Origin: a virus
Taxonomy: Duplodnaviria > Heunggongvirae > Uroviricota > Caudoviricetes
Virus record (IMG/VR): IMGVR_UViG_2684622772_000008
DNA length: 4,463 nt
Strand: one strand, 5' to 3'
The notes under the pieces were generated by a model. That model worked only from the letters and a program-made list of their open reading frames with translations. It was not told where the DNA came from and ran no database searches. The position numbers and the translations under genes are program-made. This document shows, in pieces, positions 1 through 4,463 of this stretch (position 1 is the stretch's first letter; every line of letters begins with the position of its first letter).

Positions 1-2
1 TT

Positions 3-753
3 TTCTGCTCATTATTAGCTCCTTCTGATGCCATTCTATTTCAGGAAGGAGTGTCCGTTAAACTCAGGCTACCTCAGGTTATTCGCTTCTGGGCATGGGC
101 GGATCAACAAATGATAGACGGTAATGCAGATTGTAACGCTCGCGGCGTTACAAAAAGTGCAATAGATCGCATCACTTTTATGTCTGGTTTTGCTGATGCG
201 TTAATTCAGGTTGGATGGCTGGTCGAAAATGACGGAGGGCTTTCTCTACCTAACTTTGAACGTCATAACGGAAAAAGCTCTAAAAAAAACGGGCGGTTAC
301 AAACGAGCGAGTAACAAAAATACGCGAACTGAAACGAAAAGGTAACGCTGCCAGCGTTACACAAACGGATCAAAAAGCGTTACCAGAGGAAGAGGAAGAG
401 GAAGATCTAAATACTGATCTCCCCCTCGCCAAAAACGAGCGTCTAAAAAATTCGAGCCGGAGGCTATTGAGCTGCCCGATTGGTTGCCGGAAACACTCTG
501 GCATGAGTGGGTCCGGTTCAGACAGGCATTGCGAAAACCGATTCGAACGGAGCAGGGCGCTAACGGGGCGATACGGGAACTGGAAAAATTCCGTCAGCAG
601 GGTTTTACACCTGAGCAGGTGATTCGACACAGCATCGCCAATGAATACCAGGGCCTGTTCGCGCCGAAAGGTGTTCGGCCTGAGACGTTGCTCCGACAGG
701 TTAACACCGTCTCGTTGCCGGACAGTGCGATCCCGCCAGGCTTCAGGGGGTAA
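3..753 (+). pseudogene. Phage replication/primosomal protein with DnaT-like C-terminal domain; 5' end upstream of window; frame broken twice at poly-A runs
   Basis: Three contiguous coding segments in three + frames. Segment 1 is open from nt 3 to TAA 312-314 (N-terminal domain; the GTG at 51 is probably internal). Segment 2 runs about 290-450 (charged linker, including EEEEEE from (GAGGAA)3 at 386-403). Segment 3 runs 418-753 and ends ...NTVSLPDSAIPPGFRG, matching the DnaT C-terminus as I recall it (...NTVSEPDSQIPPGFRG). Frame switches coincide with A8 at 282-289 and A6 at 445-450. TAA 751-753 lies 6 nt before the DnaC-like start, as in dnaT-dnaC operons. Confidence 0.6.
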
Positions 754-759
754 CGGACC

Positions 760-1186
760 ATGAAAAATATTGCGACAGGCGGCGTTCTGGAACGCATCCG
801 CCGACTGACCCCGCCACATGTAACCGCCCCATTCAGAACGGTAGCGGAGTGGCGCGAGTGGCAACTTGCTGAAGGCCAGAAACGTAGCGAGGAGATCAAC
901 CGCCTGAATCGCCAGTTGCGGGTGGAAAAAATTCTGAATCGCTCAGGCATCCAGCCGTTGCACCGTAAATGCTCGTTTGCGAATTACCAGGTGCAGAACG
1001 ACGGCCAGCGATACGCGTTAAGCCAGGCGAAATCCATCGCCGATGAACTGATGACCGGGTGTACAAATTTTGCGTTCAGCGGAAAACCTGGTACCGGGAA
1101 GAATCACTTAGCGGCAGCTATCGGGAATCGCCTGCTGAAAGACGGTCAGACAGTGATTGTGGTTACCGTGGCTGATGTTATGAGCG
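760..1186 (+). CDS. DnaC-like helicase loader (phage replication protein), N-terminal 142 codons only; 3' part lost in assembly gap
   Basis: ATG 760 with GGGGG at 746-750. The translation aligns along its length with E. coli DnaC as I recall it (NRSGI.PLH..CSF.NY; Walker A GKPGTGK at nt 1081-1101; ...VTVADVMS). The frame runs straight into the N-run at 1187. Confidence 0.88.
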
Positions 1187-1414
1187 NNNNNNNNNNNNNN
1201 NNNNNNNNNNNNNNNNNNNNNNNNNNNNNNNNNNNNNNNNNNNNNNNNNNNNNNNNNNNNNNNNNNNNNNNNNNNNNNNNNNNNNNNNNNNNNNNNNNNN
1301 NNNNNNNNNNNNNNNNNNNNNNNNNNNNNNNNNNNNNNNNNNNNNNNNNNNNNNNNNNNNNNNNNNNNNNNNNNNNNNNNNNNNNNNNNNNNNNNNNNNN
1401 NNNNNNNNNNNNNN
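1187..1414. other. Assembly/scaffold gap (228 N)
   Basis: Uninterrupted run of n characters; true length and content unknown. Confidence 0.99.
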
Positions 1415-1430
1415 AGTTTCAGGAGGATTT

Positions 1431-1853
1431 ATGGCGAAACCTTTTACTCCCGAACAGCGGGAAGAACTGAAGACGCGAATTGTGGAACTCGTGCATCAGG
1501 ACGGTCGGGTCACGATTCGGCAGTTGTCAGATGAAACAGGTATCAGTCGTGCGTCTGTCGGTCGCTTATGCATAGAACTGGTCGCAAGTGGTGATGTATA
1601 TAATTCTGGCTACGGCTTATTCCCGTCTGAACAGGCTCGCAAGGACTGGCAAAGCGCCCGCAAAAAACTCTCGAGAGTAAAGGTGAGGAAACCGGTTGTT
1701 GTTGATCCGGACCTTATCTGGTCATTACCTGACGGAGAAATACGCCGCTACGACAGGCGCCTGAATATAATCTGTCGCGAGTGCCGGAAGAGCGAAGCTA
1801 TGCAGCGTGTACTGGCTTTCTATCAGGGTAATTTTCAGGAGGCGATACTGTGA
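1431..1853 (+). CDS. Hypothetical phage protein with predicted winged-helix/HTH DNA-binding domain (140 aa)
   Basis: AGGAGG 1421-1426, ATG 1431, TGA 1851-1853. Residues ~17-55 (RIVELVHQDGRVTIRQLSDETGISRASVGRLCIELVASGDV) have an HTH-like pattern, followed by a basic C-terminal half. No family assignment from memory. Confidence 0.7.
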   Translation: MAKPFTPEQREELKTRIVELVHQDGRVTIRQLSDETGISRASVGRLCIELVASGDVYNSGYGLFPSEQARKDWQSARKKLSRVKVRKPVVVDPDLIWSLPDGEIRRYDRRLNIICRECRKSEAMQRVLAFYQGNFQEAIL

Positions 1854-1910
1854 ATGAAATTAGCTATCAGGCTTCAATTACCGCTGGCATTCGCATCAAA
1901 GGAGAGGAGC

Positions 1911-2267
1911 ATGGAAATAAAACCAGAAGATGAGTTAAGCAATATCGTTTTATTTCCGGTAAAAGAGGATGACCCTCGTAATCAGGTTAATTTTCTTTAT
2001 GAGCCATCGGAAAGACCATATTGCCATCACGCCTCTGTACGGGTTGACGAAAAAGAGCGTCAGGTCCGCTGTAAAATCTGCGGTGCGGTTGTGGAGCCGT
2101 TTGACTGGATGCTCTCTGTGGCAAAAAGAGAAACCAGACTGGCAGATGATGTAAGGCTATTGCGCCAGGAGGAACAGGAAAGGCGGAGAAATATAGAAAA
2201 GCTGATACAGATTGAGCGTAACGCGAAAGCGCGGATACGCAGGGCGACAAAATCCAGAACTGAATAA
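1911..2267 (+). CDS. Hypothetical zinc-ribbon plus coiled-coil protein (118 aa; 137 aa if started at ATG 1854)
   Basis: ATG 1911 is preceded by AGGAGAGGAG at 1900-1909. An in-frame ATG at 1854 directly abuts the upstream stop (TGAATG, 1851-1856) with AGGAGG at 1837-1842, so the start is ambiguous. TAA 2265-2267. Cys/His cluster YCHHASVRVDEKERQVRCKICG, then an Arg/Glu-rich helical-looking tail. Confidence 0.6.
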   Translation: MEIKPEDELSNIVLFPVKEDDPRNQVNFLYEPSERPYCHHASVRVDEKERQVRCKICGAVVEPFDWMLSVAKRETRLADDVRLLRQEEQERRRNIEKLIQIERNAKARIRRATKSRTE

Positions 2268-2414
2268 TTAAATTTAGCACTGTTAAAAATTTAATCCTTA
2301 ACCGGAGGGATTTCTGCACCCTCAAATCATCAGGAGACCACCCGAAAGGGCGGGGAGCAGTCACACATCTGTTTCCGATAGCCCCGTTCTAATGCTACAC
2401 TCTTTGATATTTTT

Positions 2415-3101
2415 ATGACCCCAATAAACATATTTATGACAGTTGCTGATTTCAAACGGCCCAAATTGGAGCTCCCAAACGGGGCAAACAAACTACTACT
2501 GCACTCTTGCTGTGCTCCATGTTCCGGTGAGGTGATGGAGGCGCTTCAGGCCTCGGGAATCGACTACACCATCTTTTTCTACAACCCGAACATTCATCCT
2601 CAGAAAGAGTATTTAATTCGTAAGGATGAGAATATTCGCTTTGCTGAACAACACGGCGTGCCGTTTATTGATGCTGATTACGACACAGACAACTGGTTTG
2701 AACGAGCCAAAGGAATGGAATGGGAGCCCGAACGAGGGATCCGTTGCACCATGTGTTTTGACATGCGTTTTGAGCGGACAGCGCTGTACGCCGCTGAAAA
2801 TGGTTTCAGTGTGATCAGCAGTTCACTGGGCATTTCACGCTGGAAAAATATGCAGCAGGTTAACGACTGTGGGCGGCGAGCCGTCGCGCATTATCCGGGC
2901 ATGGTGTACTGGGATTATAACTGGCGCAAGCAGGGCGGCTCGTCCCGTATGATTGAAATCAGCAAGCGCGAAAAATTCTATCAGCAGGAATATTGTGGCT
3001 GTGTGTATTCTCTGCGCGATACCAATCTACACCGCAAATCTCAGGGACGCCCTCTTATCAAAATTGGTCAACTCCACTACGGTAAAGAAGAGAAGGAGTG
3101 A
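2415..3101 (+). CDS. queH: QueH-family (DUF208) epoxyqueuosine reductase-like protein (228 aa)
   Basis: The translation contains [32 protein letters not shown] and C-terminal YCGCVYS, the conserved Cys-containing blocks I recognise as the QueH/DUF208 signature. TGA 3099-3101. No clear Shine-Dalgarno before ATG 2415; in-frame ATG 2436 and TTG 2466 are alternative starts. Confidence 0.82.
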
Positions 3102-3122
3102 TTTTATGGGGCACCTTTCTGA

Positions 3123-3152
3123 TTGATTTCATATTGGCGAGGTAAGTAGAAT
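3123..3152 (+). promoter_or_regulatory. Candidate sigma70 promoter of the hok-like mRNA
   Basis: -35 TTGATT at 3123-3128, 18-nt spacer, -10 TAGAAT at 3147-3152. Predicted start near 3159-3162 puts GUGCUUGAGG at the 5' end of the transcript, resembling the 5' end of plasmid R1 hok mRNA as I recall it. Confidence 0.45.
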
Positions 3153-3204
3153 GACTGCGGGTGCTTGAGGCTATCTGCTTCAGGCATGAACACCAAAAGG
3201 CAGA

Positions 3205-3281
3205 TAGAGAAAAGCCCCAGTTAACATTACGCGTCCGGCAAGACGCTTAACATTAATCTGAGGCCAATTTCATGCTTTGCA
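3205..3281 (-). ncRNA. sok: Sok-like antisense RNA (antitoxin of the type I TA locus); ends approximate
   Basis: On the minus strand, -35 TTGCCT (plus coords 3310-3315), 17-nt spacer, -10 TAACCT (plus coords 3287-3292). This has the same position and orientation as the sok promoter in hok/sok loci, overlapping the mok-equivalent start region. The transcript would run leftwards through the 5-bp hairpin GCGUC/GACGC at 3231-3246. The 3' end is not defined by a clean U-tract. Confidence 0.4.
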
Positions 3282-3328
3282 CATGTAGGTTAGCCTCTTA
3301 CATGCCGAAAGGCAAGGAGAAGCAGGCT

Positions 3329-3484
3329 ATGAAGCAGCAAAAGGCGATGTTAATCGCCCTGATCGTCATCTGTTTAACCGTCATAGTGACGGCACTGGTA
3401 ACGAGGAAAGACCTCTGTGAGGTACGAATCCGAACCGGCCAGACGGAGGTCGCTGTCTTCGTAGACTACGAATCCAGGAAGTAA
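3329..3484 (+). CDS. hok: Hok/Gef-family type I toxin (51 aa, single transmembrane helix)
   Basis: AAGGAG 3314-3319, ATG 3329, TAA 3482-3484. Protein MKQQKAMLIALIVICLTVIVTALVTRKDLCEVRIRTGQTEVAVFVDYESRK has a hydrophobic helix and the TRK.LCE.R..G..EVA tail typical of Hok proteins. It is very close to E. coli HokD/RelF as I recall it. Leader and trailer RNA elements are also hok-like. Confidence 0.9.
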   Translation: MKQQKAMLIALIVICLTVIVTALVTRKDLCEVRIRTGQTEVAVFVDYESRK

Positions 3485-3561
3485 GAGTGACCGGGCGGGG
3501 AGCTGATCCCATCCCCGCCCACCTCTGATGTGTCAGGCATCCTCAACGCACCCGCACTTAA

Positions 3562-3604
3562 CCCGCCCATCGCTGTGATCTCTCAGCGTTTCGGCGGGTT
3601 TTTT
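3562..3604 (+). terminator. Rho-independent terminator of the hok-like transcript
   Basis: Stem CCCGCC (3562-3567) pairs with GGCGGG (3593-3598), with inner pairing CGCUG (3571-3575) and CAGCG (3584-3588), followed directly by TTTTTT at 3599-3604. Confidence 0.7.
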
Positions 3605-3624
3605 GTTGTTTATTTCCGGTGAAT

Positions 3625-3652
3625 TTGATTCGCGCACCTTCGCAGATAGAAT
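3625..3652 (+). promoter_or_regulatory. Candidate sigma70 promoter upstream of the 95-aa ORF
   Basis: -35 TTGATT at 3625-3630, 16-nt spacer, -10 TAGAAT at 3647-3652. These are the same hexamers as the hok promoter, and the sequence after the -10 is similar (TAGAATcGACT vs TAGAATGACT). Confidence 0.4.
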
Positions 3653-3733
3653 CGACTCACTTAAGTAGCGCGCAGGGAGAAGAGGGATGGACCCCGAACA
3701 GGGGAGAGCTATTTATCTGGAAGGATTCTGAAG

Positions 3734-4021
3734 ATGAAAATCGAAGAATTGCGTGAAATTTTTAGTGAAAATGGCCTCTATGCTGTGCGCGTTGAGAATG
3801 GAGCGATTGTCAGCCATTGCCGCATTAGATGTTTGCAATCTCAACAAAGGAAGAGCGGTGCTGTGTTATTTTATTTTTGTAATGGACTTCTGACGGACGG
3901 TTTTATTTTGCGTGAGGACGAATTTGTCACATCATTACGGGTTTTGAAAGAGATTGGTTTTAAGGCTGGTTTTCTGCTTTTGCTGAAGAATAAACTCATC
4001 TACAATCTTGAGCAGGATTGA
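3734..4021 (+). CDS. Hypothetical protein (95 aa), unassigned
   Basis: GGAAGGA at 3719-3725 is 8 nt before ATG 3734; TGA 4019-4021. Codon usage looks AT-rich with AGA/AGG Arg codons. No family recognised. Confidence 0.45.
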   Translation: MKIEELREIFSENGLYAVRVENGAIVSHCRIRCLQSQQRKSGAVLFYFCNGLLTDGFILREDEFVTSLRVLKEIGFKAGFLLLLKNKLIYNLEQD

Positions 4022-4059
4022 ACTCCTGCTGTGTAACACCGTGCCACCGGAGAAAGCCG

Positions 4060-4413
4060 ATGGCACATATACAACTGGTCAAACAAACCTCTTCCGGATT
4101 ACTTCTCCCGGCGACGCCGGAGAGTTGCGATTTTCTGCATCAAATCAAAATAGGTGAGTGGATACACGCAGACTTTAAGCGTGTGTGTAACTACGCATTC
4201 CACAAGCGTTTTTTCAAACTCCTGCAACTGGGTTTCGATTACTGGACTCCGGTCGGTGGGGCGATCACGCCTCGCGAACGAAAACTGGTGTCCGGTTTCG
4301 TTGATTACCTGTGTGAATCAGTAGGCCGGGAACATACGCCAGCTCTGAGCGAAGCCGCAGAGCAATTGAGGTGTACTGGCAATAGCGGACACTACCATTT
4401 GTTCTTTTTTTAA
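4060..4413 (+). CDS. Hypothetical protein (117 aa as read); may be 3'-truncated or frameshifted at a T7 run
   Basis: GGAG at 4049-4052 is 7 nt before ATG 4060 (the ORF-track TTG at 4018 is less likely). The protein is MAHIQLVKQ...GHYHLFFF with TAA 4411-4413. The stop follows T7 at 4405-4411, and the adjacent frame is open from 4410 to the window end. Confidence 0.5.
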   Translation: MAHIQLVKQTSSGLLLPATPESCDFLHQIKIGEWIHADFKRVCNYAFHKRFFKLLQLGFDYWTPVGGAITPRERKLVSGFVDYLCESVGREHTPALSEAAEQLRCTGNSGHYHLFFF

Positions 4414-4463
4414 GCAGCCATCTGATGATATTTTTCCCTGAAGGCTGCCGGGGAGATATTCCC

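What the first reader, a model, noticed from the sequence alone, without database searches (positions are those of the whole stretch)
2415..3101. Orphan QueH-type epoxyqueuosine reductase carried as prophage cargo
The 228-aa product carries the QueH/DUF208 signature blocks (HSCCAPCS, the central C..C pair, C-terminal YCGC). QueH performs the last step of queuosine-tRNA maturation (epoxyqueuosine to queuosine). It sits alone between phage genes and a hok/sok locus, with no other que genes and no DpdA/Tgt-like gene in the window. Enterobacterial hosts normally use the unrelated cobalamin-dependent QueG for this step, so a phage-borne QueH would be a host-independent way to finish Q modification. 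It could also act on another 7-deazaguanine derivative.
Basis: partly seen in the sequence, partly recalled or inferred. Interest (0 to 1): 0.6.

Follow-up and report, generated by a model that had tools for sequence, protein, structure and literature searches.

The report
Prophage-borne B12-independent queuosine tRNA enzyme QueH
The gene is a well-preserved copy of QueH, the vitamin-B12-independent enzyme that finishes the queuosine modification of tRNA; public annotation already names it, and about one in five E. coli genomes carry it on prophages next to the B12-dependent QueG found in all of them, so it is a correct but largely ordinary finding.

Summary
The ORF is real and is a QueH by every test I could run. 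It matches Pfam PF02677 at 220.6 bits over the whole profile. All seven metal-ligand positions are present. The predicted fold matches Thermotoga maritima QueH (TM-score 0.83 on the target). dN/dS against other alleles is 0.025-0.04. The start is more likely ATG 2436 (221 aa) than 2415.

RefSeq already names this exact protein QueH. The gene occurs in 995 of 5426 complete E. coli genomes, and all 5426 also carry queG. It is also on about 300 plasmids and in one isolated phage, HannyBb. Its closest relatives (79-92% identical) sit in non-phage chromosomal settings in the Providencia and Enterobacter genomes examined.

The intact prophage holds no other que gene and no dpdA or tgt. Within the 75 nt upstream, the only block conserved across ten loci is an extended -10-like TGCTACA(C/A)T, 43 nt before ATG 2436. 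This suggests the gene has its own promoter.

Most likely the gene is self-transcribed cargo that lets a lysogen convert epoxyqueuosine to queuosine without cobalamin. Activity and benefit are untested. In this window the gene lies on a 4.3-kb prophage remnant bracketed by IS600 copies. Phage resources (PHROGs, HannyBb) still list it as unknown.

The parts
2436..3101 (+). queH coding sequence at its most likely start (221 aa plus stop). Predicted [4Fe-4S]/Fe epoxyqueuosine reductase.
   Evidence: Pfam PF02677 at 220.6 bits. 100% identical to RefSeq WP_012421537.1, named 'epoxyqueuosine reductase QueH'. Homologue N-termini align with M8. PDB 7lc5 E=5e-22. AF2 model against 7lc5/7lc7: target-normalised TM-score 0.83.
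2415..2435 (+). Probably 5' leader and not translated.
   Evidence: Absent from nearly all homologues. Three of four nucleotide changes in phage HannyBb are non-synonymous here, whereas the downstream sequence is nearly invariant.
2393..2401 (+). Candidate extended -10 promoter element TGcTACACT. A weak -35-like TTCCGA lies at 2373-2378 with a 17-nt spacer.
   Evidence: It is the only block conserved in the 75 nt upstream across 10 loci from prophage, phage, plasmid and chromosomal settings. It sits at a fixed -43 (+/-1) from ATG 2436. The generic sigma-70 scan did not list it: 7 of 12 hexamer matches by my count, below the scan's threshold of 9. No transcription-start data exist.
2502..2525 (+). 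HSCCAPCS motif. C32, C33 and C36 in 228-aa numbering; C25, C26 and C29 in 221-aa numbering.
   Evidence: Aligns with T. maritima QueH H7-C9-C10-A-P-D13. C9S and D13N mutant structures are deposited. Cys at the D13 position in 70 of 76 non-gap sequences, the T. maritima row included.
2745..2756 (+). CTMC motif (C111, C114).
   Evidence: Aligns with T. maritima C87 and C90. Cys in 84 and 83 of 87 aligned sequences. Invariant in 38 close homologues.
2991..3002 (+). YCGC motif (C194, C196).
   Evidence: Aligns with T. maritima C169 and C171. Conserved across the representative set. Invariant in 38 close homologues.

Best explanation
The gene encodes a functional QueH. This is an iron-sulfur enzyme with a [4Fe-4S] cluster and an adjacent iron, in an adenine-nucleotide-alpha-hydrolase-like fold. 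It reduces epoxyqueuosine (oQ) at position 34 of tRNA-Asn, -Asp, -His and -Tyr to queuosine (Q) without cobalamin.

It was captured from an enterobacterial chromosome. It now travels on lambdoid/Rac-like prophages, usually next to hok/sok, and also on plasmids. It is a self-contained unit with its own extended -10 promoter and a short leader lacking a Shine-Dalgarno sequence.

In E. coli-type hosts it duplicates the core, B12-dependent QueG. E. coli cannot make B12 de novo. The likely effect is therefore that a lysogen completes Q even when cobalamin is scarce.

Shown here: family membership, an intact ligand set, the fold, purifying selection, distribution, and the lack of partner genes. Inferred: enzyme activity, promoter use in the lysogen, and any fitness benefit.
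For: Identity:
- Pfam QueH at 220.6 bits, full length.
- PDB T. maritima QueH E=5e-22 over residues 27-203.
- AF2 model with pLDDT 76.9. Its five best Foldseek hits are all T. maritima QueH, TM-score 0.83 on the target, rmsd 2.6-3.0 A.

Active site:
- All seven ligand positions are present. They are invariant in 38 homologues and conserved across 86 cluster representatives of 170-300 aa, taken from hits of 37-81% identity.

Selection and integrity:
- 19 synonymous against 2 non-synonymous differences from the E. albertii prophage allele (dN/dS 0.025). Values are 0.039 and 0.029 against the Scandinavium and Kluyvera alleles.
- 985 of the 995 E. coli genomes with a match hold at least 80% of the gene.

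Origin:
- 84% identical to Providencia QueH, which lies among core genes (tmcA, purC, dapA).
- 89% identical to an Enterobacter copy beside mnmA-rluE-icd.

Autonomy:
- The TGCTACA(C/A)T block at -43 is conserved in unrelated settings.

Redundancy and cofactor logic:
- queG is in 5426 of 5426 E. coli genomes.
- QueG is one of E. coli's cobamide-dependent enzymes (PMC11841063).
- QueH is listed as the B12-independent alternative (PMC10378866).
- The reduction of oQ to Q in E. coli depends on cobamide (Frey et al. 1988, cited in PMC4646009 and PMC5175355).
Against: - No experiment on this protein or on any E. coli prophage QueH turned up in seven full-text searches.
- No phenotype is known that separates oQ-tRNA from Q-tRNA. 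Deleting queG did not change growth in the one study read (PMC11841063).
- The promoter call rests on conservation alone. The generic scan did not list it, and no terminator-like site was found anywhere in 1800-3800; folding the flanks showed none either.
- There is no Shine-Dalgarno sequence before either ATG, so expression may be low.
- Part of the purifying selection measured between alleles may have acted in donor species where QueH is the only oQ reductase.
- The NCBIfam library gave no hit, so the RefSeq name does not come from one of those models.
Confidence: 0.75

Rival explanations
1. The gene serves the phage rather than the lysogen. QueH would be made mainly from early rightward transcription after induction. 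It would top up Q on host tRNAs so that phage genes rich in NAU/NAC codons are decoded well during lytic growth.
For: The gene lies in the early-right operon, between the replication and nin/Q modules and on the same strand. No terminator-like site was found in the stretch around it. Neighbouring prophages carry tRNA genes, which shows that the translation apparatus is a target of phage cargo.
Against: The same gene with the same conserved -10 block occurs on plasmids and in chromosomes with no phage genes nearby. The prophage tRNAs (Ile, Arg, Thr, Gly) are not Q-tRNAs. No decoding difference between oQ and Q is known. Only one of 50,697 phage records is an isolated phage that carries this gene. 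Codon usage was not analysed.
Confidence: 0.12
2. It is a passenger with no current role in E. coli. It hitch-hikes with the hok/sok addiction module in a cargo hotspot and is redundant with QueG.
For: queG is universal in E. coli. The gene is absent from 82% of genomes. It sits beside hok/sok in most carriers: 741 genomes hold at least 80% of the joint queH-hok segment. In this window it survives on a decayed prophage fragment flanked by IS600.
Against: dN/dS is 0.025 between two prophage alleles. The gene is still full length in this decayed remnant, where the O-like and ninB genes are broken. In 985 of 995 carrier genomes at least 80% of the gene is present. The promoter-like block is also conserved.
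Confidence: 0.1
3. The enzyme acts on a substrate other than oQ-tRNA, for example a 7-deazaguanine derivative in DNA or a free nucleoside.
For: Phages are known to place 7-deazaguanines in DNA (PMC6884629, PMC10516641). T. maritima QueH has been crystallised with GMP and with queuosine, so the pocket accepts the free nucleotide or nucleoside.
Against: The window and the intact prophage contain no DpdA/Tgt-like transglycosylase and no preQ0 synthesis gene. The protein is 79-92% identical to QueH proteins that lie in non-phage chromosomal settings where examined, and its ligand positions match the family's conserved set. No epoxy-deazaguanine is known in DNA (own knowledge).
Confidence: 0.03

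Closest known systems
Thermotoga maritima QueH (PDB 7LC5, 7LC7, 9DEU; mutants 9D86 C9S and 9DCO D13N)
   Same: Same Pfam family and the same fold: about 30% identity over 180 columns, TM-score 0.83 on the target. Six cysteines align one to one: C9/C10/C87/C90/C169/C171 with C32/C33/C111/C114/C194/C196.
   Different: T. maritima Asp13 corresponds to Cys36 here. Cys is the majority form in the family, and T. maritima is the exception. The window protein also has a basic C-terminal tail of about 25 residues ([12 protein letters not shown]...) shared by its close homologues. Activity is unmeasured.
QueH genes in non-phage chromosomal settings in Enterobacterales (Providencia, Photorhabdus, Erwinia, Pantoea, Serratia, Enterobacter, Scandinavium, Kluyvera)
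   Same: 79-92% amino-acid identity over the full length, with the same N-terminus and C-terminal tail. The nearest relatives (87% identity or more) share the conserved TGCTACA(C/A)T block upstream.
   Different: Those copies lie among core or non-phage genes, for example tmcA/purC/dapA in Providencia and mnmA/rluE/icd in Enterobacter. This copy lies in a lambdoid prophage next to hok/sok, in a host that always has QueG.
QueG, the cobalamin-dependent epoxyqueuosine reductase (E. coli b4166)
   Same: Catalyses the same reaction, oQ-tRNA to Q-tRNA. It is present in the same E. coli genomes.
   Different: It is an unrelated protein that needs cobalamin and two [4Fe-4S] clusters (PMC4646009, PMC5175355). 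It is a core chromosomal gene, found in 5426 of 5426 genomes, whereas queH is accessory and mobile, found in 995 of 5426.
Phage 7-deazaguanine DNA-modification clusters (DpdA with FolE/QueD/QueE/QueC, and others)
   Same: Phage-carried genes taken from the queuosine pathway.
   Different: Those clusters centre on a DpdA transglycosylase and preQ0 synthesis genes and modify DNA. That survey found no QueA, QueG or QueH in the viruses it analysed (PMC6884629). Here a lone QueH is present with none of those genes.

Membership tests
QueH (Pfam PF02677 / DUF208 / COG1636) | Full-length match to the family profile above the curated threshold | tested here: met
   220.6 bits against a cutoff of 23.5, profile positions 1-174 of 175, E=1.9e-65.
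QueH (Pfam PF02677 / DUF208 / COG1636) | Metal-ligand set: CCxP(C/D) near the N-terminus, a central CxxC, and a C-terminal CxC | tested here: met
   C32, C33, C36, C111, C114, C194 and C196 are all present. They align with T. maritima C9, C10, D13, C87, C90, C169 and C171. They are conserved in the family and invariant in 38 close homologues. Which residue binds which metal rests on my recollection of the structure paper, which was not available to read.
QueH (Pfam PF02677 / DUF208 / COG1636) | Fold of the solved QueH structure | tested here: met
   AF2 model with pLDDT 76.9 and pTM 0.78. The Foldseek top five hits are all T. maritima QueH entries, TM-score 0.82-0.83 on the target. The next hits are PP-loop/[4Fe-4S] sulfurtransferases at much weaker scores. 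Confidence in the model is moderate.
QueH (Pfam PF02677 / DUF208 / COG1636) | Catalyses oQ-tRNA to Q-tRNA without cobalamin | not testable with these tools
   Needs complementation of a queG mutant and LC-MS of tRNA nucleosides.
QueH (Pfam PF02677 / DUF208 / COG1636) | The host makes the substrate (tgt and queA present) | not tested
   tgt and queA are core E. coli genes by established knowledge. The source genome of the window is not available to check.
QueH as a non-orthologous replacement of QueG (the usual genomic pattern, not a defining feature) | Occurs in genomes that lack queG | tested here: not met
   queG is in 5426 of 5426 complete E. coli genomes, so all 995 queH carriers have it. 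Co-occurrence is also reported in streptococci (PMC12632869).
Phage 7-deazaguanine DNA modification system | A DpdA/Tgt-like transglycosylase plus preQ0 pathway genes in the same element | tested here: not met
   None is in the window. None is among the annotated genes of the intact prophage.
Phage moron (an autonomous cargo unit) | Own promoter and own terminator, independent of phage operons | tested here: inconclusive
   A conserved extended -10-like block lies at -43 in 10 loci from different settings. No terminator-like site was found in the scanned stretch or by folding the flanks. No transcription-start data exist.
Anti-phage defence systems (PADLOC) | Match to a known defence protein model | tested here: not met
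   No PADLOC hit for QueH. Only two weak chance-level hits, both to the helix-turn-helix protein (DUF977), and none for the other neighbours.

The most novel reading that the evidence does not exclude
Mobile queH on prophages and plasmids is a lysogenic-conversion trait. It would free queuosine completion from cobalamin in Enterobacteriaceae that cannot make B12. Carriers would hold Q-tRNA rather than oQ-tRNA in B12-poor niches such as urine, blood or aerobic environments, with an effect on decoding or fitness. The list of carriers includes APEC O1, ST95, ST131, O18 and strain 042, which hints at extraintestinal lineages. No enrichment test was done.
Probability: 0.4. Interest if true: 0.45.

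Novelty: already known. Interest (0 to 1): 0.27.

Why it matters
Identifying the gene adds nothing new. RefSeq already names this exact protein QueH in roughly a thousand E. coli genomes.

Three smaller points seem under-appreciated:
- A tRNA-modification enzyme from the Q-specific branch of the pathway is common phage and plasmid cargo in Enterobacteriaceae. The main survey of viral deazaguanine genes reported no QueH in the viruses it analysed (PMC6884629).
- In E. coli the gene always sits alongside QueG. That makes it a clean natural system for asking whether B12-independent Q completion matters.
- Phage resources mis-handle it. The PHROG 3217 profile starts at Met41, which removes the CCAPC motif, and is labelled 'unknown function'. 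Phage HannyBb lists the gene as hypothetical.

If carrying queH changes the oQ/Q ratio under cobalamin limitation, that would be a modest new example of a prophage altering host translation.

Tried and rejected
- NCBIfam scan: no model matched QueH.
- PADLOC: no defence-system match.
- Generic promoter and terminator scan: it did not list the conserved -10 block and found no terminator. Folding the flanks gave nothing convincing upstream (z = -0.8). Downstream it found only the hok mRNA hairpin.
- Literature: seven full-text searches found no paper on prophage-borne QueH in E. coli. Neither Zallot 2017 (PMC5495094) nor Frey 1988 (PMC211089) is held, and no held copy of the QueH structure paper turned up. 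Ligand assignments and the B12 physiology therefore rest on secondary citations and my own knowledge.
- Start at Met41, as the PHROG 3217 profile suggests: rejected. It would delete three ligand cysteines that are under strong constraint.
- Start at 2415: considered less likely than 2436.
- Role in DNA modification: rejected for lack of any transglycosylase.
- Whether other species' copies are prophage-borne: among 86 fetched loci, only the E. albertii locus shares phage genes with this prophage.
- Source of the window: no complete E. coli genome has the IS600-bracketed arrangement.
- Not attempted: NAU/NAC codon-usage comparison of phage and host genes; enrichment of queH by E. coli phylogroup or pathotype; whether the species whose chromosomal queH was examined lack queG.

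Full report
**1. Observation**

The window holds an open reading frame at 2415..3101 on the + strand, encoding 228 aa. The product matches Pfam PF02677 (QueH) at 220.6 bits, against a gathering score of 23.5, across positions 1-174 of the 175-position profile. It also matches the solved Thermotoga maritima QueH at E = 5e-22 over residues 27-203.

The neighbours are as described. Upstream lie fragments of an O-like replication gene, a YdaV/DnaC-like ATPase interrupted by a run of N (1187-1414), a DUF977 'Ren-like' protein and a zinc-ribbon protein. Downstream lie a hok/sok locus, a small protein of unknown function and a truncated NinB/DUF1367 gene. The hok/sok evidence is Pfam HOK_GEF for the ORF 3272-3484 and Rfam RF01794 at 3159-3334.

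**2. Start codon**

Of 120 close homologues, nearly all begin at the residue that aligns with Met8 of the 228-aa reading. RefSeq places the start of the identical protein WP_012421537.1 (221 aa) at the position equal to window 2436. In phage HannyBb, the seven codons between 2415 and 2436 carry mostly non-synonymous changes, whereas the sequence after 2436 is almost invariant. I therefore place the start at 2436.

The PHROG family that matches (phrog_3217, 'unknown function') models only residues 41-228. A start at Met41 would remove three ligand cysteines that are invariant in relatives, so that gene model is wrong.

**3. Is it an intact QueH?**

Seven positions matter. T. maritima QueH has C9, C10, D13, C87, C90, C169 and C171. 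The window protein has C32, C33, C36, C111, C114, C194 and C196 at the aligned positions. The C9S and D13N mutant structures in the PDB show that the depositors treat those two positions as functionally important.

The Asp-to-Cys difference is not a defect. I aligned the window protein with the T. maritima sequence and 86 cluster representatives of 170-300 aa, drawn from hits of 37-81% identity to the query. Cys fills that column in 70 of the 76 non-gap sequences, and T. maritima is the only one with Asp. All seven positions are invariant in an alignment of 38 close homologues.

An AlphaFold2 model has mean pLDDT 76.9 and pTM 0.78. Its five best Foldseek matches are the five T. maritima QueH entries, with TM-score 0.82-0.83 on the target and rmsd 2.6-3.0 A. 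The next matches are PP-loop and [4Fe-4S] sulfurtransferases such as TtuA, LarE and NcsA, at far weaker scores.

The gene is under strong purifying selection. Against the E. albertii prophage allele there are 19 synonymous and 2 non-synonymous differences (dN/dS 0.025). Against the Scandinavium and Kluyvera alleles the ratios are 0.039 and 0.029.

**4. Distribution and origin**

- The gene is found in 995 of 5426 complete E. coli genomes, almost always once and on the chromosome. In 985 of them at least 80% of the gene is present. Every listed copy is annotated 'epoxyqueuosine reductase QueH'.
- In 741 genomes at least 80% of the joint queH-hok segment (2268-3700) is present, so the two genes usually lie together.
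- The intact form of this prophage in E. coli FDAARGOS_944 is 99.9% identical. It lies between ybhA and the structural genes, and has an integrase, a RecE/Gam region, a cI/Cro switch, ydaT, an O-like gene, ydaV, DUF977, queH, hokD, nin genes, four tRNA genes (Ile, Arg, Thr, Gly), lysis genes and a terminase. It has no other que gene and no dpdA or tgt.
- E. coli 042 and the isolated temperate phage HannyBb show the same local gene order.
- Among 50,697 phage records, HannyBb is the only isolated phage that carries this gene, and it lists it as 'hypothetical protein'. The remaining matches are unannotated metagenomic fragments or very large 'phage' records of doubtful nature.
- About 300 plasmids, mostly from Klebsiella and E. 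coli, also carry a copy. One example is an IncFII/IncR plasmid where the gene lies near an IS3-family element.
- The closest relatives outside these mobile elements are 79-92% identical. In Providencia the gene sits among core genes such as tmcA, purC, dapA and bamC. In Enterobacter it sits beside mnmA, rluE and icd.
- Of 80 loci fetched from species-representative genomes, only the E. albertii locus shares any gene with this prophage.

The simplest reading is that a chromosomal enterobacterial queH was captured and then spread on prophages and plasmids.

**5. Redundancy with QueG**

queG from K-12 (b4166) is present at 95% identity or more in all 5426 E. coli genomes. Every queH carrier therefore also has the cobalamin-dependent enzyme. 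It is too broad for the order, because many Enterobacterales have QueH.

**6. Expression signals**

The upstream DNA of the different alleles cannot be aligned beyond about 55 nt. Within the last 75 nt, one block is conserved across ten loci taken from a prophage, an isolated phage, a plasmid and several chromosomes. That block is TGCTACA(C/A)T, at 43 +/- 1 nt before ATG 2436. GCTAC and the final T are invariant in all ten. In the window it is TG at 2393-2394 and TACACT at 2396-2401, with a weak -35-like TTCCGA at 2373-2378.

It has the form of an extended -10 promoter, and it travels with the gene. I infer that queH is transcribed on its own, starting near nt 2408, with a leader of about 27 nt that has no Shine-Dalgarno sequence. 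This is inference only. The generic promoter scan did not report the site. No terminator-like site was found in the scanned stretch around the gene.

**7. Mechanism**

The best explanation (confidence 0.75) is that the product is an active, cobalamin-independent epoxyqueuosine reductase acting on host tRNAs that Tgt and QueA have already modified. QueG is one of E. coli's cobamide-dependent enzymes (PMC11841063). The oQ-to-Q step in E. coli depends on cobamide (Frey et al. 1988, cited in PMC4646009 and PMC5175355). E. coli cannot make B12 de novo (established knowledge). A lysogen would therefore complete Q when B12 is lacking.

The rivals are:
- Use mainly during lytic growth for the phage's own translation (0.12).
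- A neutral passenger carried along with hok/sok (0.10). This is weakened by the low dN/dS and by the gene staying full length in a decayed remnant.
- Action on another deazaguanine substrate (0.03). This is weakened by the absence of any transglycosylase and by near-identity to QueH proteins that lie in non-phage chromosomal settings.

No phenotype that separates oQ from Q is known, so a benefit is unproven.

**8. Comparison with what is known, and novelty**

The protein meets every testable criterion for QueH membership. Only enzyme activity could not be tested. It is not part of a phage DNA-modification cluster and not a known defence system.

The identification is already in RefSeq for this exact sequence, so I rate it as already known. 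What appears not to be in the literature I could search is that QueH is frequent phage and plasmid cargo in Enterobacteriaceae. The main survey of viral deazaguanine genes states that no QueA, QueG or QueH homologue was found in the viruses analysed (PMC6884629). Seven full-text searches found no paper on prophage QueH. Co-occurrence of QueG and QueH has been noted in streptococci (PMC12632869).

**9. The window itself**

Bases 76-4366 match the intact prophage at about 99% identity. Bases 1-75 and 4367-4463 do not. The right end lies under annotated IS600 (IS3-family) transposase features. The left end lies under a feature annotated only 'transposase', with a similar copy-number profile. I read both as IS600 ends in the same orientation, partly from my own recollection of the IS600 terminal sequences. 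The O-like gene is truncated and frameshifted, and ninB is cut short. No complete E. coli genome shows this bracketed arrangement. The source is probably a Shigella-like genome that holds only a prophage remnant, in which queH and hok/sok are still intact.

**10. Verdict**

The finding is a correct annotation of a known enzyme family in a mildly interesting mobile setting. Interest is 0.27.

Noticed in passing
window 1-75 and 4367-4463: Both ends of the window are insertion-sequence ends. The right end is annotated IS600 (IS3 family). The left end is annotated only 'transposase', and I read it as the other IS600 end. They bracket a 4.3-kb prophage fragment in the same orientation, like a composite transposon carrying queH and hok/sok. 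No complete E. coli genome has this arrangement, so the source is probably Shigella-like.
   Followed up: partly
window 51-753 and 4018-4413: The O-like replication gene is cut at its 5' end and frameshifted into two ORFs (51-314 and 484-753). NinB/DUF1367 matches only profile positions 1-102 of 198 before the IS600 end. The prophage is a decayed remnant, yet queH and hok are intact.
   Followed up: partly
window 1187-1414: A run of 228 N (masked sequence) lies inside the ydaV/DnaC-like ATPase gene. The intact prophage L001 has ordinary coding sequence there.
   Followed up: no
window 2535 (Met41 of the 228-aa ORF): PHROG family 3217 ('unknown function') models only residues 41-228. Phage gene callers seem to start at this internal ATG, which follows a GAGG-like stretch, and so lose the CCAPC motif. 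Phage HannyBb lists the gene as hypothetical. This is an annotation gap in phage resources.
   Followed up: partly
window 2361-2435; loci L007-L013, L087, L089: None of the ten alleles has a Shine-Dalgarno sequence between the conserved -10-like block and the start codon. The leader is AU-rich. The mode and level of translation initiation are unclear.
   Followed up: no
window 3159-3484: A complete hok/sok-type type I toxin-antitoxin locus. Rfam RF01794 scores 117 bits. The mok-like ORF is 3272-3484 and hok is about 3329-3484. It lies next to queH in most E. coli carriers: 741 genomes hold at least 80% of the joint segment.
   Followed up: partly
plasmid hits H116-H140, for example L089 (K. 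pneumoniae pHNGS471-3, 4946-5614): About 300 plasmids carry a queH 88-99% identical to the window protein. They are mostly from Klebsiella and E. coli, and many are conjugative IncF types. In the one plasmid examined the gene lies in an accessory region near an IS3-family element. The gene therefore moves on plasmids as well as phages.
   Followed up: partly
loci L034, L039, L043, L080 and others: This QueH clade is unusually conserved, at 76-80% identity from Enterobacterales to Sphingomonas, Stenotrophomonas, Pseudomonas and Neisseriaceae. A few records are oddly placed, such as contigs labelled Bacillus subtilis SK7B5 or Candidatus Avacidaminococcus. These look like contamination or recent transfer.
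   Followed up: no
window 3734-4021: A 95-aa ORF between hok and ninB matches only phrog_340 (unknown function) and no Pfam family. It is annotated 'hypothetical protein' in the intact prophage.
   Followed up: no
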